Shown piece by piece: positions 5,780 through 26,660 of a stretch of 36,545 nucleotides of DNA. The number at the start of each line of letters is the position of its first letter. The stretch's first letter is position 1. Where the stretch lies: IMG/VR virus record IMGVR_UViG_2585427736_000013; one strand, 5' to 3'. The notes under the pieces were generated by a model. It was not told the DNA's origin. It searched no databases and saw only the letters and a program-made list of their open reading frames with translations. The DNA is from a virus (Duplodnaviria > Heunggongvirae > Uroviricota > Caudoviricetes). Made by a program: the position numbers and the translations under genes.

Positions 5780-8573
5780 TATCCGGGTCGCTTTCAGCGC
5801 CGTTGACAGACTGACCCGGCCTGCCGAAAACGCCCGCCGCCTGATGGGGCAGTTTGGTGACTCCATCCAGCGAACGCAGGGGGCGATCAAAAATCTCGAG
5901 CGTCAGGCGCGTTCATTTGAGCGCGCCCGTGACGCTGTCAGTAAAGCGGATGCGAGCATCGTGAAAGCACGACGCCAGCTTAACGCCCTTAATCAGTTAC
6001 AACGCACGGGTACAGTGCTCAGCGAAAAACAACAAAAGCTGATGCAGCAGTTAAGCACCCGGCTTGAACGCCTGAATGAATCGCGCACACGGGAAATTCA
6101 GAAAATGCGGGAGCTTGGCGGAGAGCTGAAACGCCACGGCATTTCCCTGACAGGCAGCGATAACACCATCCAGCAGGCCATCAGACGCACCGAACAGTAC
6201 AACAACCAGCTTGAACGCGAACGGCAGACGCTTGCGCGTGTAACGCGGGCGCGTGAGCGGTATTCGCGCGCGCAGGAAACTGCTGGAAAACTGAAAACAG
6301 GTGGTGCGCTGGCAATTGGTGCGGCAGCGGCTGGCGGCTATGCTGCCGGGCGTTTTTTGCAGCCTGCGATCGGGTTCGGGAAAGAGATGTCCCGCGTTCA
6401 GGCACTGACGCGAATCGATCAGAACAGCCCACAGTTTAAGGCGCTGCGTGAGCAGGCGTTAAAACTTGGCTCTGAAACGCAGTTCACCGCAGGCGATGCC
6501 GCCAGTGGACAGGCATTTCTTGCAATGGCTGGCTTCACACCGCAGGCCATTCAGGCTGCGCTTCCGGGCGTGCTGAGCATGGCAACGGCTGGCGGCATGG
6601 ATCTCGGCGAGACGGCGGATATTGGCTCAAATATCCTAACGCAGTTCGGCCTTTCTGCTGACCAGATGGACCGGGTTGGTGACACACTCACCGCAGCGTT
6701 TACCCGTACCAACACTGACCTTCGCGCACTGGGCGAAACCATGAAATATGCAGGTCCGGTGGCGGGTAAGCTGGGAATATCGCTGGAGCAGGCCGCAGCG
6801 ATGGCGGGCGTGCTGGCGAATATGGGTATCAGAGGGAGTGATGCCGGGACGGCAATGCGTGCCAGCCTGGCTCGTCTGGCATCACCGCCAAAGGCAGCAG
6901 CAGAGGCGCTGAAAGAGCTTGGTGTGGCAGTTTCTGACGCGAACGGCAAAATGCGCCCGATGGAGGATGTGCTGGCCGACCTTTATAAAGCCACCCGCAA
7001 ATACGGGGAAGTTGACCGGGTATCCTTCTTTAAGGACATCGCCGGGGAAGAGGCTTTCACATCGTTTATGGCGCTCGTTGATGCAGCGGGTGACGGGTCC
7101 TTACCCAAACTGAGAAAAGAACTTGAAGGCGCGCGCGGTGAGGCTGAACGCACAGCAAAGGTTATGGCCAACAACCTTGACGGCGATCTGAAATCACTCG
7201 GCAGTGCATGGGAAGGGGTGCGCATCCGCATTGCAGATCTGATTGACGGTCCGCTGCGTTCTGTCACGCAGTGGCTCACGCGTGTGGTATCAAAGGTGAC
7301 GGCGCTGGCGCAGGCCCATCCCGCACTGACGCGCCAGCTACTGATAGCAGGCGGTGCGTTGCTGGCAATGACTGCAACGGTTGGCTCGTTGTCGCTGGCT
7401 ATTGGTGTGCTTGCTGGTCCGCTGGCAAAACTGCGTCTTGGTTTTTCCCTCCTGACCGGATCAATGAATGCTGTCAGGGTCCTGCCAGCACTATGGGGAA
7501 TGGTGACGGGTTCCGTTTCTTTGCTGGGAGGTGCTATCGGGGCGCTGTTCAGTCCGGTTGGTCTTATCGTGGCTGCGCTTGCCGGAGCTGCCATTCTTAT
7601 CTGGAAATATTGGGATCCCATCAGGGCATTTTTTGCCGGGGTGTTCGGCGGGATTATGGAAAGGCTGACCCCGTTGCGCGAAACCTTTGAACGGTTTGGC
7701 CCTGTTTTTGACGTAATCGGAAGCGGGATCAGCCAGGTGTTTAACTGGTTTAAATCGCTGCTGTCACCGATGGAGTCCAGCAAGGAAACGCTGGATAAAT
7801 GTACCAGTGCTGGCGAGATATTCGGTAACGTTCTTGGTGGCGCGTTACAGCTTGTTCTGACGCCTGCAAAAATGTTGCTGGATACGCTGGCGTGGATACT
7901 TGAAAAACTCGGTGTGCTTCCGGATGAAGCGGAAAGGGCGAGAAAGAAAATCGAAGACGCACAGCGTGCGGCCATTCTTCAGGATAAGGTTGCTCTGTTT
8001 CAGGGAGACATTGCGAAAATCAATCCGCCGAAGTCTGCGGAAAATGGCAATGGCACCGGAGGCGATAAACCCAAAGACAACAAACCGCTCACAGACAGCA
8101 ATACCGGTACGCTACGCAGACTCAGCAAGATTGCTGATAACACAGGTAAGCTGGTTGATGAGACGAAAAAACGCATTGGCCCTGGCGATATTGTCTTTAA
8201 GAACCTGCCCCGCGCACTTGCTGTTCGTGGGGAGTGGCAGGAGCGGAAGATTGCGCAGGTCAGTAAGCCTGCCCCCGCAATTAAGATCACACCCGTGGTC
8301 CCGGCTCCGCTGCCTCCGGCGCTGGTCCCTGTTGTTACGGCCAGCTCCCGCCCAGTGGCGGAGGCCATACGATCGCCAGTGGCATCAGTTCCTGCAACTT
8401 CCCGTAACCGGGAGCCTGTTGCCTCCGGATTTGGCGGTGAAATTCATGTTCATCTGCATAACGTTGTTACGCAGAATCCCCGCGAACTGGCGAAACTGGT
8501 CGGTGAAATGGTCAGGGCAGAAATGGAACGGCGCACCCGTGCCGGGCGTGGCAGTTTTTACGATAAAGATTGA
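5766..8573 (+). CDS. T: tail tape measure protein
   Basis: Long ORF (track 5730..8573) with coiled-coil N-terminus, Ala/Gly-rich transmembrane-like central segments; start ambiguous between GTG 5730, ATG 5757 and ATG 5766. Confidence 0.9.
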   Translation: MKTLDIRVAFSAVDRLTRPAENARRLMGQFGDSIQRTQGAIKNLERQARSFERARDAVSKADASIVKARRQLNALNQLQRTGTVLSEKQQKLMQQLSTRLERLNESRTREIQKMRELGGELKRHGISLTGSDNTIQQAIRRTEQYNNQLERERQTLARVTRARERYSRAQETAGKLKTGGALAIGAAAAGGYAAGRFLQPAIGFGKEMSRVQALTRIDQNSPQFKALREQALKLGSETQFTAGDAASGQAFLAMAGFTPQAIQAALPGVLSMATAGGMDLGETADIGSNILTQFGLSADQMDRVGDTLTAAFTRTNTDLRALGETMKYAGPVAGKLGISLEQAAAMAGVLANMGIRGSDAGTAMRASLARLASPPKAAAEALKELGVAVSDANGKMRPMEDVLADLYKATRKYGEVDRVSFFKDIAGEEAFTSFMALVDAAGDGSLPKLRKELEGARGEAERTAKVMANNLDGDLKSLGSAWEGVRIRIADLIDGPLRSVTQWLTRVVSKVTALAQAHPALTRQLLIAGGALLAMTATVGSLSLAIGVLAGPLAKLRLGFSLLTGSMNAVRVLPALWGMVTGSVSLLGGAIGALFSPVGLIVAALAGAAILIWKYWDPIRAFFAGVFGGIMERLTPLRETFERFGPVFDVIGSGISQVFNWFKSLLSPMESSKETLDKCTSAGEIFGNVLGGALQLVLTPAKMLLDTLAWILEKLGVLPDEAERARKKIEDAQRAAILQDKVALFQGDIAKINPPKSAENGNGTGGDKPKDNKPLTDSNTGTLRRLSKIADNTGKLVDETKKRIGPGDIVFKNLPRALAVRGEWQERKIAQVSKPAPAIKITPVVPAPLPPALVPVVTASSRPVAEAIRSPVASVPATSRNREPVASGFGGEIHVHLHNVVTQNPRELAKLVGEMVRAEMERRTRAGRGSFYDKD

Positions 8574-10384: not shown

Positions 10385-12171
10385 TATGCAAGCCTCACAA
10401 TATAGTTAAATGCGATGTTTTTTACGGTATTTTCTGTATTACCTGTAGCATTAACGGTAATAGAGTGCCCGTGTGAGCCAATAGCAACCGTGTGTGAATG
10501 TGCACCAATACCAACAGTATGGTTATGTGCTCCAATGTTGACTGTATGTGCATGATTGCCTGATGAACTTGTAGTCGTAGCACCTTTATCACTTCGCGGA
10601 ACACCATAATCTGCACCGCCTGATTGCACGCTCACAGCAAAACCGACGGTATGTGTATGATTGCCAGAAGTATTGGTTGATTTTGTGCCGTGGTTAAACG
10701 TACTGACTGTTTTTGTCCCGTAATCAAATGAACTGGTCGTTTTCGTTCCTAAGTCCGTATTTGACGCACTGGCGCTGTGAGTATGCGATTTAATCCCGTC
10801 CTGTTCCTGAGACAATACGGCCCGACCAGTGGCGGGTTTTCCTTTGATTGTCCAGCCACGCATATCAGGGAGCACACCAGAGGGATAAGCTACTGCAAGT
10901 TTCGGGTATGCTGATTTGTCAAAAGCCTGCCCCACCATGATAGCGTAACCGTCAGGCGGCGTATCTGACGGCCACGGCAGAGGTATTCCCGGTGGTAATG
11001 CTTCAATTCCCTTTGTGCCATCAAAAGCAACACCACTGATGGGGTGTGCTGTTTCCAGTTTACTTGCAGATACTGCGTTACCTGTTGCGGATAATGCGCC
11101 AATATCCTGCACTGTGGGCTTGTTTTTATCCGTGTAAGTGCGGTACCAGATGGTTTTTTTTCCCTTGTCCAGTATCACCCCGGTAAATTGTGCCCGGTGT
11201 TCTTTTGTGGTCGGATCTGAATCTTCCAGCCCTGTGGTGATCCTGACTATTCCGCCGATGATTTCGCCAAACACTTCAATCAGGCAGCCGCCCAGGCCGA
11301 TATCACCGTACCCCGTGTCAGTAAGCACGCAGTGCTGTGACAGCGAAATATTAGCCCTGAATATCCAGCTCCCTGTTCTGAAGGCGCCACGCTCATTCAG
11401 CCACTCCACGAATTGTTCCGTTGTCCAGCGTTGTCCTGCTTTACCTATGTACCCGTTTTTTGCATAAACGCGTGGTGTGCCCACGTTGATCAGGAACAGC
11501 TCCTTGTTGGGGATGTCCTCACCATTGCGGTTTTTCGCAAGCCGACCATCAGCGTTGTCCATGGCGATCTTTATGGCCTTTGGCGTGGCTGCCCGGGTCT
11601 CTGATGTACTGGTGGTGTCGCTGCTTAACTGAGTAAAACCTTTTGTGGTCAGCGAGGCATCCGGGTGACGTCGTGACTGTTCATGCTCTTTCAGTTTGTC
11701 ATCCACGTAATCCACTGTGGCCATCACCATGGTGTTATCCACGGTAAGCGCCACGGTGGCAGTGCTGGATACGGTCAGAATGGTGCGAAATGTTTGTGCA
11801 CGTCCGGACCCTTCGGCAACGGTTGGTTTGTAACTTTCGGCAGTATTGCCCACCGCGATTAAATCGCCGTGCTCATCAAATACACCAATTTCCCGGATCC
11901 AGAATCCGCCCGTTTCAGGAGGAATAACCAGCTCCGCAATAATGCGGTTCTGATGTGTTGCGTCCAGGATGACGCGATTAACAGTGTTTCGCCACACCTC
12001 ATGCACCAGACGGATCTGCTTACTGTCTGGTGTGGGCAACGTGCCGCCACCGTCGCCCACGGCCATATGAGTCAGGCGGACAGGCTTACCATCTGGCGCG
12101 GCTGCCTGAGCTAATTTTTTTGCACCCGTATCGGTGATAACGGTTTTAAATTTTCGTGTTGTGGTACTCAT
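10384..12171 (-). CDS. H: tail fibre protein
   Basis: 595 aa; N-terminal region like P2 H ([43 protein letters not shown]); C-terminal region with repeated GNHxHTV / HxH motifs. Confidence 0.9.
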
Positions 12172-22335: not shown

Positions 22336-23381
22336 TGAGCAGAAAAAATAAAAAAATGCGCATGAGTTCACGCATTGATCTCGCTGATGCGCTCAGGAAA
22401 GAATCATCGCTCAGTGCATTCACATTTGATGGTCCTTATTGCCTGACCGGGCATGACCTGCTGGACAATATGTACTGTGCTGATAACGGGCGGTGGTATG
22501 AAACCCCGGTGGACTGGTACGGTCTGGCAAGAGCCGCCCGGCAAACGTCCTGGCATCAGTCTGCGCTTTACTTTAAGCGCAATGTATTGCTCGGTTGCTA
22601 CATCCCGCACCCGCTGCTTTCCCGGCAGGATTTCTCGGCGCTGGCGCTGGACTGGTTTGTGTTCGGTAACGCATTCCTTGAGCTTCGGAGCAATATGCTC
22701 GGCGAACCGCTTAAATTACGGCACGCCCTGGCGAAATACATGCGACGCGGAAGTGATCTTGAATCATGGTGGTATGTGCAGGATGGCAAGGATGCGTTTC
22801 AGTTTCGCCCTGGCAAAGTGTGCCACCTGATGAATCCGGACATTAACCAGGAAATCTACGGCATGCCGGAATATCTTGGCGCATTACTCTCGGCCAGCCT
22901 GTCTCATTCGGCGGACATGTTCAGAAAACTGTATTACGACAACGGCTCCCACGCCGGGTGCATCATCTACATCGGTGCAGCGCAGGTAAACCGCGAAAGC
23001 ATGGACTCCCTGAAAGAAACGTTACAGGGGGCACGTGGTGGTGGTGCGTTTAAAAACGTGCTCATTCATGCGCCCAACGGGGGCAAAGAGGGGGTGCAAA
23101 TTTTGCCGTTCCAGCAGATCACCGCAAAAGATGAGTTCATGAATGTTAAGGCGGCATCCCGTGATGATGTGCTGGCTGCGCACCGCGTTCCGCCGCAACT
23201 GATGGGGGCGATGCCGGGCGAAAAAAGTGCGTTTGGTGATGTGGAGAAGGCCGCGCGGGTTTACGCAATTAACGAGCTGATGCCCGTCATGGAGGCCATG
23301 AAGCACATCAATGACTGGCTCGGCGAAGAGGTGATCCGCTTTAACCCTTACGCACTGTTAGACACCCAGCCCACATCCTGA
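22335..23381 (+). CDS. Q: portal protein Q
   Basis: 348 aa; start overlaps P stop (TGATG). Confidence 0.95.
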   Translation: MSRKNKKMRMSSRIDLADALRKESSLSAFTFDGPYCLTGHDLLDNMYCADNGRWYETPVDWYGLARAARQTSWHQSALYFKRNVLLGCYIPHPLLSRQDFSALALDWFVFGNAFLELRSNMLGEPLKLRHALAKYMRRGSDLESWWYVQDGKDAFQFRPGKVCHLMNPDINQEIYGMPEYLGALLSASLSHSADMFRKLYYDNGSHAGCIIYIGAAQVNRESMDSLKETLQGARGGGAFKNVLIHAPNGGKEGVQILPFQQITAKDEFMNVKAASRDDVLAAHRVPPQLMGAMPGEKSAFGDVEKAARVYAINELMPVMEAMKHINDWLGEEVIRFNPYALLDTQPTS

Positions 23382-23906
23382 CGCGCTTCGCTTGTCTGCT
23401 GCTTCGCCGGGGCATAAAAAATTTATGCCCCGACTCTCCAGCTCCTGTATCAGTCAGATAATTTCACGACGCTTTCCTGCTTATTGCCATCATCGACGGT
23501 CAGACTCTTACGCAATCCCACCGCGTTGACTGCGTGTTCTCGCCGCCTCAGTGCGATTTTGACGGCCTTACCTTTCACCCCATCAAATCAGAATCCCTCA
23601 CGTATTTTTCACGCTCAGCGTGAGAAATACGGCCATTCTGTCGTGTCGCTGCGACATCGTTAAGGGAACGCTATTTACCCCCTGAAACGCGGGCTGTTCC
23701 CCCGTCACCTGCGCGCAGAAAAAAACGCGTTTTTTTGTGCACGCACGGATCCTTGACGGATCCAGCCGCCATGCGGGCCGGAAGGGTAAAAAGTCGTTCA
23801 AAAAAATTGTGCAAATTTGTGCACTATTGTGCGGTGTATAAAATGAAAATATGGCGGTGTTATTACTGCCCAACAAGTAGTTATACTTACGTTATGGGCG
23901 TGCATA
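23382..23906. other. cos-proximal non-coding region (cos inferred, not mapped)
   Basis: 525 bp without a credible ORF directly after portal gene Q, where P2-type genomes place cos; 11-bp-arm palindrome 23408-23432, 15-bp-arm inverted repeat 23601-23631, palindrome 23644-23656, A7CGCGT7 palindrome 23719-23736. Confidence 0.35.
23807..23842 (+). promoter_or_regulatory. three phased direct repeats TTGTGC(A/G) plus -10-like TATAAA upstream of phd-doc
   Basis: Repeats begin at 23807, 23817 and 23827 (exact 10-bp phasing); TATAAA at 23837-23842. Confidence 0.4.
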
Positions 23907-24263
23907 ATGGAAATGAATATGAAAACTGTAACTGATGATGAATTTCGTGAGAACCTGAGTGAAATTCTGGATTACCTTTCTTCCGGTGGCAGTGTCGTTA
24001 TCACGGCGCAGGGAGGGAAGGATGTTGTTCTTGCTGGTTCTGATCTTAGTCCTGAAATACGGGCTGTCCTTGGCAAAACCAAAAAACTGCGGGATCAAAT
24101 AAACAAAATGAAGCAACCACTCTTAATAAATGCAGTGAGAGATCTGGAAAAACGTCATCCAGCTCTTGTCGCACAGAGAAAAAAAGGATTGTCTTTTGAA
24201 GATGCAATGAAGCGTACAAGAGAAAAACATGCGGATATCATTAAAAAGCTTGAGGATAACTGA
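23907..24263 (+). CDS. phd: Phd/YefM-type antitoxin (long form, 118 aa)
   Basis: N-terminal region resembles the Phd/YefM fold (FRENLSEILDYLSSGGSVVITAQGGKDVVLA); stop overlaps doc start (TGATG); three in-frame ATGs within 12 nt, so the exact start is uncertain. Confidence 0.7.
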   Translation: MEMNMKTVTDDEFRENLSEILDYLSSGGSVVITAQGGKDVVLAGSDLSPEIRAVLGKTKKLRDQINKMKQPLLINAVRDLEKRHPALVAQRKKGLSFEDAMKRTREKHADIIKKLEDN

Positions 24264-24670
24264 TGGACATAGTGTTTTTGTCAAAAGAACAAGTAGAACG
24301 TATCCATGCTGAAACTTTACCCCAGAGCGGAAATGCCAATGACGGGCTACTTGAAGGTGCTTTAAATCGCGTCAGGACACTACACTACTATGAAGGGGTT
24401 GATGATATTCATGCTCTGGCTGCTATGTATTTGATTGGTATAGCTAAGGCTCATGCCTTTCATGATGGGAATAAACGCACAGCTTTTCAGGCTGCATCAA
24501 TATTTTTAATGATGAACTCTTCCGAACTTTCAAACTCCCTGCTGCTGGTTAAATTAACGGTGTTTTCAGCAATGGGGATAGCTACCCTTGAGGAAGTTAC
24601 CTTTGCTTTGAAATTGCTGTCTGATTATGGCAATGAATTAATCAGCGACTACGAAGAAGATTATATTTAA
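24263..24670 (+). CDS. doc: Doc (death-on-curing) Fic-fold toxin
   Basis: 135 aa containing the Doc-type motif HAFHDGNKRTA. Confidence 0.85.
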   Translation: MDIVFLSKEQVERIHAETLPQSGNANDGLLEGALNRVRTLHYYEGVDDIHALAAMYLIGIAKAHAFHDGNKRTAFQAASIFLMMNSSELSNSLLLVKLTVFSAMGIATLEEVTFALKLLSDYGNELISDYEEDYI

Positions 24671-24836
24671 TGCTGGCATACTCTGTCGTGTTAAGACAAC
24701 AGCCTTTGCGGAGACAGGGCAGGGTGCCAGACTTGCCCGCAGCGCGTCTGACATGAGCAGTTATTCATCTTTTTTATTGTTTTTCTCCATGCATGGCGAC
24801 AGTGCGCCCCGATAAAATTAAAAGCCGTCAAATTCG

Positions 24837-25172
24837 TCATTCATGCGTTTTTTCTTCATGGTCTGTCACTTCTCTCCTGATAAATTCATTGCACAAATCA
24901 ACGCACTCATTGCAGATGTAAACAGACGGTCCGGCAATCAGCTTTGTGACTTCGTACTGGGATTTATTGCAGAAGCTGCAATAAATCGTCTTCTCGCCTG
25001 AAGTCCATGTTTTGCTGGTTTCGCCAGACATCAGTTGTTTGATGTCTTTTTCACGACGAAGAACTATCCGGCCACATTCAGCTATTTTTTGGATGTTGAC
25101 ATTTTCTTCTTTCGCCAGCGCTTCCATTCGCTCAATCAGTCGCTGCGCTTTTTCTCTGTCAATGTGTTGCAT
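24837..25172 (-). CDS. small protein with C-terminal ClpX-type C4 zinc-binding domain
   Basis: 111 aa; residues 64-100 ([38 protein letters not shown]) closely match the N-terminal zinc-binding domain of ClpX as recalled; AAGGGG Shine-Dalgarno. Confidence 0.8.
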
Positions 25173-25235: not shown

Positions 25236-25547
25236 TTATTCGGGAAATAATGCCCGGATATTTCCGGCCATCTGACTGGTTATCTGTGCGGTTGGTACTG
25301 GCTGTGACACGGGGCGTTCTGTCCTGGTTTGTGTCAGGGATAACGCTTCATCGTCAGCCCATGCAGCCAGTCGGTAAGCCTCTGCCGGATTAATTTTCAT
25401 AAGTGCCAGTCCGGCCAGAAAAGCCACGCGTTGACCACTTTTGCGGGCTTCTGGTGTAAGGCTGTCCAGCCAGGCGCATGCTTCGCCTTCGTTCTTGACG
25501 GCGGCGGGCTTCAGATAGAAACTTATCCGTCTGGTTGGTGTCGTCAT
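25236..25547 (-). CDS. parR: ParR/StbB-like centromere-binding protein
   Basis: Track frame 25236..25682; start placed at ATG (rc of 25545-25547) with AAGGAG Shine-Dalgarno just after parM stop; N-terminus resembles plasmid R1 ParR as recalled. Confidence 0.7.
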   Translation of the reverse strand: MTTPTRRISFYLKPAAVKNEGEACAWLDSLTPEARKSGQRVAFLAGLALMKINPAEAYRLAAWADDEALSLTQTRTERPVSQPVPTAQITSQMAGNIRALFPE

Positions 25548-25551
25548 TGGT

Positions 25552-26511
25552 TTACTCCTTGTCCATTGCGTACAGCCCATTAACCAGAGCAAACTGTGGC
25601 ACCCCGTCCGCGATGAAAGTCGCATTAACTCCGCAGGCTTCGCGGATAGCGGGTGCCACAATCTCCGCCCCGCCACCGACAACCATCACCCGCCCGTAAC
25701 CCGAAAAACCCGCCAGCGCGCGGATCACGCGTTGTTTCAGTGTTTCTTCCTTTTCACGAATAACCGCCATCAGGCTGGCGTAATGCGCGTCATTGTGGAT
25801 GTGCTGGCGCAACCAGGCTTCATCATGGCGATGTTCGATAATGGTATTGGCGATGTGGTGACTGGTACGCATACCGTTAGTGGCCATCACCGACAGTACG
25901 GCATCGGCCATCAGGGAAACGCCTACGTGTGGATCGCAAAACACCTGGCTGATACCTGCCAGTTGCCCCTGAACCTTTGCCACATCCAGTGTGGTTCCGC
26001 CTAAATCCACAATCAGCAGGGATTCAAACGGACTCATGTCAGCCAGTGCCTTAAAGCCAGCCGGAATGGATTCAGGCATAACCCGTACGTTACGGATAGT
26101 GAATGCTTCGCCGTTCTGGTACTCCACCGGGCGCATGACGTTCGCTTTTTTGCGGTTGATGTTGGCCATGTCCGGCTGTGCGTTTGTGTCGAAATATTCG
26201 CTCAGTGGCAGGGTGACAACCACATCCACTTCCTGTGGTGTGATGCCTGATTTGACCAGCGCGTGGTGAATGGCGATTACATTCACATCGCTGTACTGGT
26301 ATTGCGTGTCGGTCGTCTGGACAAAGCGATCGCTGACCGGATCAAAACCATAGCGCACGCCATCAAGCATGTAGTTCGCGGGCTGCGTGCCACCGAACGG
26401 CGCAGACCATTCCGACTTGAAGCTGTTCGGGCTGATGGCGTTGCGGCGTTCGCCGTTCTCAGTCCATGCCAGCTTGATGTTGGTGGAGCCGTCGTCGATA
26501 CAAATTTTCAT
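25552..26511 (-). CDS. parM: ParM/StbA-like actin-type segregation ATPase
   Basis: 319 aa; extended similarity to plasmid R1 ParM as recalled (IDDGSTNIKL, ISPNSF, QYSDVNV, RKKANV, VMPESIPAG, LLIVDLGGTTLD, GGGAE, LVNGLY). Confidence 0.85.
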   Translation of the reverse strand: MKICIDDGSTNIKLAWTENGERRNAISPNSFKSEWSAPFGGTQPANYMLDGVRYGFDPVSDRFVQTTDTQYQYSDVNVIAIHHALVKSGITPQEVDVVVTLPLSEYFDTNAQPDMANINRKKANVMRPVEYQNGEAFTIRNVRVMPESIPAGFKALADMSPFESLLIVDLGGTTLDVAKVQGQLAGISQVFCDPHVGVSLMADAVLSVMATNGMRTSHHIANTIIEHRHDEAWLRQHIHNDAHYASLMAVIREKEETLKQRVIRALAGFSGYGRVMVVGGGAEIVAPAIREACGVNATFIADGVPQFALVNGLYAMDKE

Positions 26512-26660
26512 GTAGCTTTTCCTTATGTTGATTAATTAATCGGTTACAGGATTTTTAAATCCCGCTTTTGCCTGTTTTGTGCGCGCTTCATATATCGCGG
26601 CGCGTTTTTTGCTCATTTACGGGATTTGTGAGTCCCGTTTCTGTCTGTTTTTTGTTTCCA
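26512..26660. promoter_or_regulatory. candidate parC-like centromere/promoter region upstream of parM
   Basis: Two units of palindrome plus CTGTTTT-containing direct repeat (26547-26581 and 26620-26654) flanking a GC hairpin with T6 (26581-26610); the second unit overlaps the 3' end of gene A. Confidence 0.35.

What the first reader, a model, noticed from the sequence alone, without database searches (positions are those of the whole stretch)
23807..24670. Phd/Doc toxin-antitoxin pair immediately after the cos region, with phased operator-like repeats
doc carries the Doc/Fic motif HAFHDGNKRTA, and phd is an unusually long (118 aa) Phd/YefM-like antitoxin with overlapping stop/start. Upstream are three TTGTGC(A/G) repeats at exact 10-bp phasing next to a -10-like element, consistent with antitoxin autoregulation, though they could equally be terminase recognition repeats. 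Toxin-antitoxin pairs in prophage accessory slots can serve as abortive-infection defence or as addiction modules.
Basis: partly seen in the sequence, partly recalled or inferred. Interest (0 to 1): 0.5.

Follow-up and report, generated by a model that had tools for sequence, protein, structure and literature searches.

The report
Phd/Doc toxin-antitoxin cargo beside prophage cos
A genuine but ordinary Phd/Doc toxin-antitoxin gene pair sits as optional cargo in the known variable "hotspot" next to the DNA-packaging (cos) site of a P2-family prophage, while the three phased repeats just upstream belong to the phage's conserved packaging region rather than to the toxin-antitoxin pair.

Summary
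There is an antitoxin ORF at 23907/23919-24263. The doc ORF at 24263-24670 overlaps it by one base (TGATG) and carries an intact Doc motif, HAFHDGNKRTA. Three TTGTGCR repeats lie at an exact 10-bp spacing (23807-23833; 0 of 100 shuffles).

Doc is a clear P1 Doc homologue. The antitoxin has a Phd/YefM-fold N-terminus, a helical linker of about 50 residues, and a C-terminal motif that does not align with the tail of P1 Phd.

Both proteins are identical to RefSeq WP_001561011.1 and WP_001561009.1. The arrangement is already listed, apparently untested, in Rousset et al. 2022 Table S5. It occupies the cos-adjacent gpA-gpQ hotspot of a P88-like (Xuanwuvirus) prophage.

The repeats are not a Phd operator:
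- The segment that contains them occurs in 1150 of 5426 E. coli genomes, against 20 for the toxin-antitoxin pair.
- In the P88-like phages aligned, the repeats precede unrelated cargo.
- They form the edge of the ~165-bp cos region, the only sequence a satellite-like element shares with these phages.

The cassette has its own promoter-like block (-35 TTATTA 23860-65, -10 TATACT 23882-87), whose hexamers are essentially invariant in five genera.

Verdict: a new member of a known kind, of low to moderate interest.

The parts
23672..23834 (.). Conserved non-coding cos region of the P88-like backbone (not part of the toxin-antitoxin cassette). It contains a strong dyad around A7CGCGT7, two ACGGATCC direct repeats and the TTGTGCR triplet at its right edge.
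   Evidence: Near-identical in five P88-like phages with different cargo. Conserved in Enterobacter, Klebsiella, Citrobacter and Symbiopectobacterium prophages. Present in 1150 of 5426 E. coli genomes. It is the only segment shared with the satellite-like element L019. The P88_4B11 linear record ends between 23788 and 23789. The GTCA..GCGCGCAG motif at 23705-23721 resembles the flank of P2/P4 cos. The fold of 23700-23760 is -25.4 kcal/mol, z -3.8.
23807..23833 (+). Three TTGTGC(A/G) direct repeats at exact 10-bp spacing. They are a backbone element, most likely part of the packaging signal.
   Evidence: 0 of 100 shuffles contain the phased triplet. The repeats are conserved irrespective of cargo and retained in the satellite-like element, where homology ends after repeat 3. 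On the minus strand, repeats 1-2 form a weak hairpin followed by T7.
23833..24839 (+). Variable-slot insert (the cargo cassette): 5' leader, phd, doc and a 166-bp 3' spacer.
   Evidence: Homology with P88-like phages that lack the pair stops at about 23832. It resumes at 24840 in P88 and PhiR44_2. The 981-bp core is at least 99% identical in 20 E. coli genomes.
23859..23890 (+). Cassette-specific promoter-like block: -35 TTATTA (23860-65), a 16-nt spacer and -10 TATACT (23882-87). This is the probable site of Phd/Phd-Doc autoregulation (inferred).
   Evidence: GTTATTA is invariant, and five of the six bases of TATAyT are invariant, in the window and four orthologous cassettes from other genera. 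The spacer between them varies in sequence at 16-17 nt. The block matches 8 of 12 consensus positions, below the 9 of 12 threshold of the scan.
23919..24263 (+). phd-like antitoxin gene, 114 aa (alternative start at 23907 gives 118 aa). It has an N-terminal Phd/YefM-fold domain (res 1-40), a helical linker (about 45-88) and an invariant C-terminal motif LSFEDAMKRTREKHAxIIKxLEDN (91-114).
   Evidence: Pfam PF02604 scores 29.2 bits against a cut-off of 29.8, N-terminus only. The protein is identical to WP_001561011.1. Family alignment. Predicted structure and fold search. There is no alignment to the P1 Phd tail.
24263..24670 (+). doc toxin gene, 135 aa (Fic-fold, Doc subfamily).
   Evidence: Pfam Fic 44.2 bits and NCBIfam DOC_P1 53.6 bits. 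P1 Doc 3k33 E=6e-13 over residues 23-119. Identical to WP_001561009.1. 81-89% aa identity to orthologues in four other genera.
24452..24484 (+). Codons for the Doc active-site motif HAFHDGNKRTA (residues 64-74).
   Evidence: Read directly from the sequence and translation. Aligned with HIFNDANKRTA of P1 Doc.

Best explanation
The window is a P88-like (Xuanwuvirus, P2-family) prophage.

Between its cos region and the ClpX-zinc-finger/StbB/ParM/gpA genes lies the family's known variable hotspot. In this prophage the hotspot is filled by a two-gene type II toxin-antitoxin operon of the Phd/Doc kind.

Doc is inferred to be a Fic-fold kinase that stops translation by phosphorylating EF-Tu, as P1 and Salmonella Doc do.

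The antitoxin is inferred to dimerise and bind DNA through its Phd/YefM-fold N-terminal domain. It is inferred to neutralise Doc with its invariant C-terminal helical motif. The two parts are joined by an unusually long helical linker.

The operon is most likely transcribed away from cos, from its own conserved promoter (-35 TTATTA 23860-65, -10 TATACT 23882-87), and autoregulated there.

In the lysogen its most likely role is abortive-infection or superinfection defence, triggered when an invading phage shuts off host expression and the labile antitoxin decays. Prophage stabilisation ('death on curing') is the close alternative.

The three TTGTGCR repeats are not part of this module. They belong to the conserved cos packaging region of the phage backbone and are most likely a terminase (small subunit) recognition element.

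Shown: gene structure, family assignments, slot boundaries, and the independence of the repeats from the cassette.
Inferred: kinase target, neutralisation mode, promoter and operator use, defence role, and terminase binding.
For: Identity of the toxin-antitoxin pair.
- Doc passes the curated cut-offs and matches solved P1 Doc with the HxFxDGNKR motif intact.
- The antitoxin N-terminus matches the Phd DNA-binding domain by predicted fold.
- The stop and start codons overlap by one base, TGATG.
- The same long-Phd + Doc pairing, with the same overlap in L022-L024, recurs in two distant relatives checked: L022-L024 (Doc 59% identical) and L029 (58%).
- PGAP names both proteins accordingly.

Hotspot cargo.
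- The insert is bounded at about 23833 and 24839 by backbone homology.
- Other P88-like phages carry unrelated genes there.
- Rousset et al. [quoted passage not shown]
- Vassallo et al. found defence systems at the same position.

Long residence in the slot.
- Orthologous cassettes occupy the same position after portal, cos and repeats in Enterobacter, Klebsiella, Citrobacter and Symbiopectobacterium prophages.
- Cassette and backbone have diverged equally, about 71% against 68-72% nucleotide identity.
- Doc is 81-89% identical across these genera, against 52-62% for Phd and about 68-78% for the portal (lower in places in the fragmented Symbiopectobacterium copy).

Own promoter. The -35 and -10 hexamers are essentially invariant in five genera while the spacer sequence varies.

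Repeats belong to the backbone and cos.
- Alignment across phages with different cargo.
- 1150 genomes against 20.
- The satellite-like element L019 carries an integrase, a Toprim primase, Ogr/Delta and a P2-family capsid gene. It occurs in 56 genomes and shares only this ~165-bp block, which ends at repeat 3.
- This parallels P2 and P4, which share only their cos site.

Neutralisation by a C-terminal tail has precedent. Residues 52-73 of Salmonella Phd alone inhibit Doc in vitro and in vivo.
Against: - No experiment exists on this pair. None of the three accession numbers appears in the searchable literature. The arrangement was not found among the systems Rousset et al. tested.
- The antitoxin misses both curated HMM cut-offs: Pfam 29.2 against 29.8, and TIGR01552 16.7 against 20.8.
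- Its C-terminal motif has no detectable sequence homology to the Doc-binding tail of P1 Phd, so the neutralisation mode rests on analogy.
- PADLOC gives only weak Fic-domain hits to candidate systems. No published anti-phage activity of any Phd/Doc pair was found.
- The proposed promoter matches only 8 of 12 consensus positions and was not called by the scan.
- A second weak promoter could use repeat 2 as its -35 (TTGTGC 23817-22, 16 nt, TAAAAT 23839-44). Some functional overlap between the repeats and expression of this E. coli allele is therefore not excluded.
- The cos nick sites of P88-like phages are not known to me, and terminase binding to the repeats is untested.
Confidence: 0.8

Rival explanations
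1. One reading: the three TTGTGCR repeats plus the adjacent TATAAA form the phd-doc promoter and operator, and Phd binds them to autoregulate the operon.
For: The repeats are real, helically phased and lie 74-112 bp upstream of phd. In this E. coli allele, TTGTGC (23817-22), 16 nt and TAAAAT (23839-44) form a weak promoter-like arrangement (read).
Against: The repeats occur, nearly invariant, in phages with unrelated and mostly opposite-strand cargo. The segment holding them is in 1150 E. coli genomes, against 20 with the toxin-antitoxin pair, and the repeats are also in a satellite-like element with no phd/doc. The TATAAA is missing from the four orthologous cassettes. The solved Phd-DNA complexes are with an operator inverted repeat (entry titles), whereas these are direct repeats. 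The cassette carries its own conserved promoter block.
Confidence: 0.04
2. The pair is real, but its role is addiction or stabilisation (classical 'death on curing') rather than anti-phage defence. Cells that lose or excise the prophage, or a plasmid-like form of it, are arrested by the longer-lived Doc.
For: This is the founding function of P1 phd/doc (established knowledge). The backbone next door carries a plasmid-type ParM/StbB partition module, so plasmid-maintenance logic is present. The cassette has co-diverged with the phage across genera rather than hopping. No anti-phage phenotype is published for any Phd/Doc pair.
Against: The prophage is integrated and has an integrase. [quoted passage not shown] Only about 2% of the copies of this backbone in E. 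coli carry the pair, which is more typical of interchangeable defence cargo. The two roles are not mutually exclusive.
Confidence: 0.3
3. The repeats act mainly as a minus-strand intrinsic terminator. It would stop leftward transcription from the parM-stbB-clpXzf-cargo operon before it enters cos. On this view they are not a terminase site.
For: The terminator scan calls GTGCACAAATTTGCAC followed by AATTTTTTTG on the minus strand at 23824-23809. The A7 run before repeat 1 is invariant. In most P88-like phages the cargo is on the minus strand and reads toward this site.
Against: The stem has only 5 bp, at -6.1 kcal/mol, z -1.5, and 15 of 200 shuffles fold as well. The hairpin does not need the third repeat, yet that repeat is conserved. 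The satellite-like element keeps all three repeats in a different gene context. The two functions could coexist.
Confidence: 0.12
4. The Doc homologue is a decayed or non-toxic Fic-domain protein, and the pair is a remnant.
For: Degenerate copies exist elsewhere. In Symbiopectobacterium, phd is frameshifted in one copy, and in others only its last 27 codons remain, without doc.
Against: In the window both ORFs are intact and the motif is complete. Doc is 81-89% identical across genera, more conserved than the portal. The E. coli allele is at least 99% identical in 20 genomes.
Confidence: 0.04

Closest known systems
Phd/Doc of bacteriophage P1 and of Salmonella Typhimurium (type II toxin-antitoxin; Doc is an EF-Tu kinase)
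   Same: Doc aligns with P1 Doc over residues 23-119 at E=6e-13, with the HxFxD(A/G)NKR motif intact. The gene order is antitoxin then toxin, with overlapping stop and start. The antitoxin N-terminal domain has the Phd fold. The pair is carried by a temperate phage.
   Different: The antitoxin is 114-118 aa, not 73. It has a helical linker of about 50 residues. Its C-terminal motif, LSFEDAMKRTREKHAxIIKxLEDN, does not align with the tail of P1 Phd. It falls just below the curated Phd HMM cut-offs. The host element is an integrated P2-family prophage, not the P1 plasmid prophage. Activity is untested.
Cargo of the cos-adjacent gpA-gpQ hotspot of P2-like phages (old/tin in P2; Rousset et al. 2022, PMC9122126)
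   Same: The position is the same, between the replication gene and the portal and next to cos. The content varies between otherwise syntenic phages. Like P2 old, the operon reads away from cos from a promoter close to it. This exact arrangement is listed in their Table S5.
   Different: In P88-like phages the slot is narrower. ParM, StbB and often a ClpX zinc-finger gene are fixed backbone inside the gpA-gpQ interval. A second small variable slot lies between the portal and cos. No anti-phage test of this cargo was found.
[quoted passage not shown]
   Same: A helper-type phage and an unrelated integrative satellite-like element share only a short non-coding block at the equivalent position. 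The left flank motif GTCA..GCGCGCAG resembles the P2/P4 flank. P2 and P4 also carry three TGCA-containing repeats, spaced 10-14 bp, on the same side of cos and at the same distance from the end.
   Different: The sequence differs from the P2/P4 19-nt cos and its flanks. The shared block is about 165 bp rather than the 55 bp cited. The repeat unit is TTGTGCA rather than ATGCA. The nick sites and terminase binding are not determined here.

Membership tests
Doc toxins (Fic fold; PF02661 / TIGR01550 DOC_P1) | Profile score above the curated cut-off | tested here: met
   Pfam Fic scores 44.2 bits against 24. NCBIfam DOC_P1 scores 53.6 bits against 38.65.
Doc toxins (Fic fold; PF02661 / TIGR01550 DOC_P1) | Doc-type active-site motif HxFx(D/N)(A/G)NKR, with K in place of the Fic G | tested here: met
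   HAFHDGNKR at residues 64-72, aligned to HIFNDANKR of P1 Doc.
Doc toxins (Fic fold; PF02661 / TIGR01550 DOC_P1) | Toxicity through phosphorylation of EF-Tu | not testable with these tools
   Inferred from homology only. It has been shown for P1 and Salmonella Doc.
Phd/YefM antitoxins (PF02604 / TIGR01552) | Profile score above the curated cut-off | tested here: not met
   Both scores fall narrowly short: Pfam 29.2 against 29.8, and TIGR01552 16.7 against 20.8. Only about 38 N-terminal residues match. Some close homologues carry a precomputed PF02604 hit. For this reason I file the protein as Phd/YefM-fold (superfamily), not as a member of the curated families.
Phd/YefM antitoxins (PF02604 / TIGR01552) | N-terminal beta-alpha-beta-beta Phd/YefM dimerisation and DNA-binding fold | tested here: met
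   AlphaFold2 model: pLDDT about 82 over residues 1-30, with strand 2-5, helices 6-21 and strands 25-29 and 36-39. The top 40 Foldseek PDB hits are all type II antitoxin structures, chiefly Phd and YefM. 4zlx_A gives TM 0.81 and rmsd 1.4 A. This is a prediction, not an experiment.
Phd/YefM antitoxins (PF02604 / TIGR01552) | C-terminal toxin-binding tail homologous to P1 Phd 52-73 | tested here: not met
   hmmsearch and hhalign align only the N-terminal 30-45 residues with P1 Phd. The tail shares only an F-x-x-hydrophobic-M start with the Salmonella hot-spot pattern, seen by eye.
Phd/YefM antitoxins (PF02604 / TIGR01552) | Encoded immediately upstream of, and co-transcribed with, its toxin | tested here: met
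   The TGATG overlap. The same layout is found in L007-L009, L022-L024 and L029.
Cargo of the P2-family cos-adjacent defence hotspot | Lies between gpA and gpQ next to cos, and varies between syntenic phages | tested here: met
   The arrangement is listed in Table S5 of PMC9122126.
Cargo of the P2-family cos-adjacent defence hotspot | Confers resistance to phage infection | not testable with these tools
   No test was found in the literature. PADLOC gives only weak Fic-domain hits to candidate systems.
   The repeats are present in all five P88-like phages aligned that lack phd/doc. The segment holding them is in 1150 genomes against 20. They are also in a satellite-like element.
cos packaging signal of a P2-family phage | Conserved non-coding block beside the portal gene, shared with a satellite as the only homology | tested here: met
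   A 1.4-kb satellite segment matches P88-like prophages only over its positions 419-585, which is the cos block ending at repeat 3.
cos packaging signal of a P2-family phage | Terminase binding and staggered cleavage at defined sites | not testable with these tools
   The only pointers are the termini of the deposited P88_4B11 record (23788|23789) and a flank that resembles P2's.

The most novel reading that the evidence does not exclude
The cos-adjacent hotspot of P2-family phages may host an arms race around Doc.

On this reading, some prophages carry this long-Phd/Doc pair as an abortive-infection defence. Other P2-like prophages carry, in the same slot, free-standing proteins of 51-56 aa that consist only of the antitoxin's C-terminal motif and have no Doc gene. 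Examples are P0072, found on 21 contigs with a strong Shine-Dalgarno sequence, and P0074.

These would act as 'anti-Doc' counter-defence or anti-addiction factors, neutralising the Doc of a resident competitor.

The evidence does not exclude this. The orphans align to Phd residues about 71-114, and a C-terminal Phd peptide alone is known to neutralise Doc in vivo. They could equally be remnants of deleted cassettes.
Probability: 0.1. Interest if true: 0.6.

Novelty: new member of a known kind. Interest (0 to 1): 0.27.

Why it matters
As it stands, this is a routine annotation. It is an uncharacterised Phd/Doc-type pair, already named by RefSeq, in a published defence hotspot. Its value is modest and lies in three points.

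1. It would be a clean candidate for testing whether a Doc kinase module can act as prophage-borne abortive-infection immunity. No such phenotype was found in the literature searched.

2. The antitoxin shows that the Doc-neutralising tail is a separable module. It occurs joined to Phd-fold N-terminal domains through linkers of very different length, and it also occurs alone.

3. Separating the repeats from the cassette defines the right edge of the Xuanwuvirus cos region. It also reveals a satellite-like element that shares that region, which is useful for anyone mapping packaging signals or hotspot boundaries in these very common E. coli prophages (about 21% of complete genomes).

Tried and rejected
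- Complex model. I submitted a Phd-linker-Doc fusion for structure prediction, to test whether the C-terminal motif docks on Doc.
- Repeats as a ParR/StbB centromere (parC). The region upstream of parM (26512-26600) has no TTGTGC iterons, only a single copy. Rejected.
- Repeats as an Ogr-type late-promoter site (TGT-N12-ACA). By eye, the spacing gives ACT, ACG or ACC rather than ACA across the phages. Rejected.
- Minus-strand terminator. The hairpin is weak. Kept only as a minor rival.
- Is L019 a P4 relative? tblastn with ten P4 proteins gave no hit. It is therefore described only as 'satellite-like', on the basis of its gene content.
- Published cos ends of P88-like phages. Nothing was found in PMC6456863 or PMC13100340.
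- Literature on the three accession numbers: none.
- tblastn of the antitoxin against 50,697 phage records. It hit only a mis-filed Salmonella contig at 30% identity, so I saw no isolated phage carrying this pair.
- A palindrome in the window's promoter spacer (TACT-N8-AGTA-N4-TACT, 23864-23887). It is not conserved in the orthologues, so it is not proposed as the operator.
Full report
**What is in the sequence.**
The + strand carries an ORF at 23907-24263 (118 aa from the first ATG) and an ORF at 24263-24670 (135 aa). The stop of the first (TGA, 24261-63) and the start of the second (ATG, 24263-65) share one base. Three heptamers lie exactly 10 bp apart: TTGTGCA (23807), TTGTGCA (23817) and TTGTGCG (23827). 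The phased triplet is found once in the window and in none of 100 dinucleotide-preserving shuffles. The heptamer alone is not over-represented.

Two details need correcting. PGAP starts the identical antitoxin at the third ATG (23919, 114 aa), and homologues are invariant only from MKTVTD onward, so the start is ambiguous. The '-10-like element' (TATAAA, 23837-42) is specific to this allele.

**The toxin.**
The 135-aa protein passes Pfam Fic (44.2 bits, cut-off 24) and NCBIfam DOC_P1 (53.6 bits, cut-off 38.65). It aligns with solved P1 Doc (3k33) at E=6e-13 over residues 23-119. HAFHDGNKRTA (residues 64-74) lies opposite HIFNDANKRTA of P1. It is a bona fide Doc-subfamily protein. Kinase activity on EF-Tu is inferred from P1 and Salmonella Doc.

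**The antitoxin.**
Only the first ~40 residues resemble Phd. Pfam PF02604 gives 29.2 bits against a cut-off of 29.8, and TIGR01552 gives 16.7 against 20.8.

An AlphaFold2 model built on 16 homologues has mean pLDDT 72, and about 82 at the N-terminus. It predicts strand-helix-strand-strand followed by long helices. Foldseek against the PDB returns only type II antitoxin structures, chiefly Phd and YefM, at the top; the P1 Phd DNA-binding domain 4zlx gives rmsd 1.4 A and TM 0.81.

The C-terminal 24 residues (LSFEDAMKRTREKHAxIIKxLEDN) are the most conserved part of the family. They do not align with the Doc-binding tail of P1 Phd by hmmsearch or hhalign.

An exhaustive profile search of 1.84 billion representatives found 61 relatives at E<=1e-3. 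About 30 are full-length proteins of 94-137 aa with the same N-terminus and tail but variable linkers. A few have much longer linkers or different N-termini, and several are 51-56-aa proteins that consist of the tail alone.

The two distant full-length relatives whose context could be checked are each followed by a Fic/Doc gene, and in one of them the same one-base overlap is seen. This supports the inference that the tail is the Doc-neutralising module. The antitoxin is long compared with P1 Phd, but it is not unique.

**Genomic setting.**
The window is a P88-like (Xuanwuvirus, Peduoviridae) prophage. The portal gene ends at 23381. A conserved non-coding region follows, then the pair, then a ClpX zinc-finger-only gene, StbB, ParM and gpA on the minus strand.

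Homology with P88, PhiR44_2, 520873, Shae_phiSM and 705R2 runs through the third repeat and breaks at about 23832. With P88 and PhiR44_2 it resumes at 24840. Those phages carry unrelated genes in the gap, mostly on the other strand.

This is the gpA-gpQ, cos-adjacent hotspot described by Rousset et al. 2022. [quoted passage not shown] The window's proteins are identical to WP_001561011.1 and WP_001561009.1.

The 981-bp core is at least 99% identical in 20 of 5426 complete E. coli genomes. I found no isolated phage record that carries it and no paper that cites the accessions.

**Evolution of the cassette.**
A scan of one genome per species found the cassette in Enterobacter hormaechei, a Klebsiella sp., Citrobacter youngae and, pseudogenised, Symbiopectobacterium. 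In every case it sits directly after the portal, cos and TTGTGCA repeats of a related prophage.

The cassette (about 71% nucleotide identity) has diverged as much as the backbone (68-72%). This argues for long residence in the slot rather than recent capture. Doc is 81-89% identical across these genera, against 52-62% for the antitoxin and about 68-78% for the portal.

**The repeats are backbone, not operator.**
- They are nearly invariant in phages with other cargo.
- The 151-bp segment 23690-23840 occurs in 1150 of 5426 E. coli genomes. Most matches end at query position 143, which is window 23832. The pair occurs in only 20 genomes.
- An integrative element in E. coli ETEC1747 (L019) carries an integrase, a Toprim primase-like protein, an Ogr/Delta zinc finger, an Icd-like gene and a P2-family capsid gene. 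No terminase or portal gene lies in the 12 kb examined.
- L019 shares with the window a block running from about 23672 to the third repeat, and nothing beyond it.
- A 1.4-kb segment of L019 matches 56 genomes in full. Where it matches other genomes it does so mainly over its positions 419-585, which is that same block.
- This mirrors P2 and P4, whose only homology is the cos site.

The deposited linear genome of P88_4B11 ends between window positions 23788 and 23789. The motif GTCA..GCGCGCAG at 23705-21 resembles the flank of P2/P4 cos.

I therefore read the repeats as the right-hand edge of the packaging signal, probably a terminase recognition element. Binding and nick positions remain untested. 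A weak minus-strand hairpin followed by a T run overlaps repeats 1-2 and may add a terminator function.

**Where the operon's own control region probably lies.**
In the alignment of the window with the four orthologous cassettes, GTTATTA (23859-65) is invariant. Five of the six bases of TATAyT (23882-87) are invariant. The 16-17-nt spacer between them varies. This is the pattern expected of a promoter.

The block scores 8 of 12 against consensus and was not called by the scan. Autoregulation by Phd or Phd-Doc at this promoter is inferred from the family's general behaviour. No conserved dyad could be identified.

In this allele only, repeat 2 plus TAAAAT (23839-44) could form a second weak promoter.

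**Function.**
Identity and mechanism (a Doc kinase held by a labile antitoxin) are well supported by homology. The biological role is not. I favour abortive-infection or superinfection defence because of the slot. Prophage stabilisation is a close second, given the adjacent ParM/StbB module and the co-divergence with the phage.

PADLOC offers only weak Fic-domain similarity to candidate systems. No Phd/Doc anti-phage phenotype was found in the literature.

**Verdict.**
The gene-pair call is right and the operator idea is wrong. The whole is an uncharacterised member of a known family in a known hotspot.

The only threads with some novelty are the separable C-terminal anti-Doc module, including orphan copies in the same slot of other P2-like prophages, and the satellite-like element that shares the Xuanwuvirus cos region.

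Noticed in passing
L027/L028 2001-2162; L025/L026 2001-2171; L021 2501-2656: These are free-standing proteins of 51-56 aa (P0072, P0074, P0022) that consist only of the antitoxin's C-terminal motif. P0072 and P0074 sit between the portal and gpA or StbB of other P2-like prophages. None has a Doc gene nearby. P0072 has a strong Shine-Dalgarno sequence and occurs on 21 contigs. They are either remnants of deleted cassettes or stand-alone anti-Doc factors.
   Followed up: partly
L019 (E. coli ETEC1747 chromosome 4283925-4296066), cos block at 5978-6144: This is a satellite-like integrative element carrying an integrase, an 891-aa Toprim protein, Ogr/Delta, an Icd-like gene and its own P2-family major capsid gene. 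Its only homology to P88-like phages is the ~165-bp cos region. It is present in 56 E. coli genomes, including one (HCP5S3_I2) that also carries the phd/doc prophage. It has no detectable protein similarity to P4.
   Followed up: partly
window 24837-25172 (-): This gene encodes a 111-aa protein made of little more than a ClpX N-terminal C4 zinc finger (Pfam 64 bits). It lies convergent with doc. From my own knowledge, P1 Phd is a ClpXP substrate, so a ClpX zinc-finger decoy next to a Phd/Doc pair is suggestive. However, the gene is backbone in P88 and PhiR44_2, which lack the pair.
   Followed up: partly
window 25236-26511 (-): A plasmid-type ParM/StbB (ParR-like) partition module sits in an integrating P2-family prophage, between gpA and the hotspot. 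No iteron-type centromere was seen upstream of parM.
   Followed up: partly
window 23382-23670, compared with L002 19003-19527, L003 883-1407 and L006 1883-2407: There is a second variable slot between the portal stop and cos. CB6837, PhiR44_2 and 705R2 carry a 174-aa minus-strand ORF there, about 600 bp. It is absent from the window and from P88.
   Followed up: no
window 23700-23763: This is a strong, strand-symmetric dyad: CTGCGCGCAG-A7CGCGT7-GTGCACGCA, at -25 to -27 kcal/mol and z about -3 to -4. Two ACGGATCC direct repeats, 11 bp apart, follow it. The GTCA..GCGCGCAG part resembles the sequence that directly flanks the 19-nt cohesive end in P2 and P4, so one cos nick may lie near 23721/23722. 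The P88_4B11 record instead breaks at 23788/23789.
   Followed up: partly
P2 NC_001895 33456-33482 (L016); P4 NC_001609 about 11500-11530 (L030): P2 and P4 each have three ATGCA-containing repeats, spaced 10-14 bp. They lie at the same distance from the cohesive end (116/126/138 nt in P2 and 116/126/139 nt in P4, counting the 19-nt end) and on the side away from gpQ. In P2 the third repeat overlaps the -35 of the old promoter. This is a possible parallel to the TTGTGCA triplet.
   Followed up: partly
L010 4001-4341 and 4344-4748; L011/L012 4001-4081: In Symbiopectobacterium the phd orthologue is frameshifted while doc still reads through (81% identity). Two other prophage copies keep only the last 27 codons of phd and have no doc. 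These look like successive stages of cassette decay in a degenerating symbiont genome.
   Followed up: no
L022-L024 2501-3297: A distant long-Phd/Doc pair (Doc 59% identical) lies next to a Q-type antiterminator gene and near HNH endonuclease genes, which suggests a lambdoid-type prophage. The module would therefore also occupy accessory slots of unrelated temperate phages.
   Followed up: no
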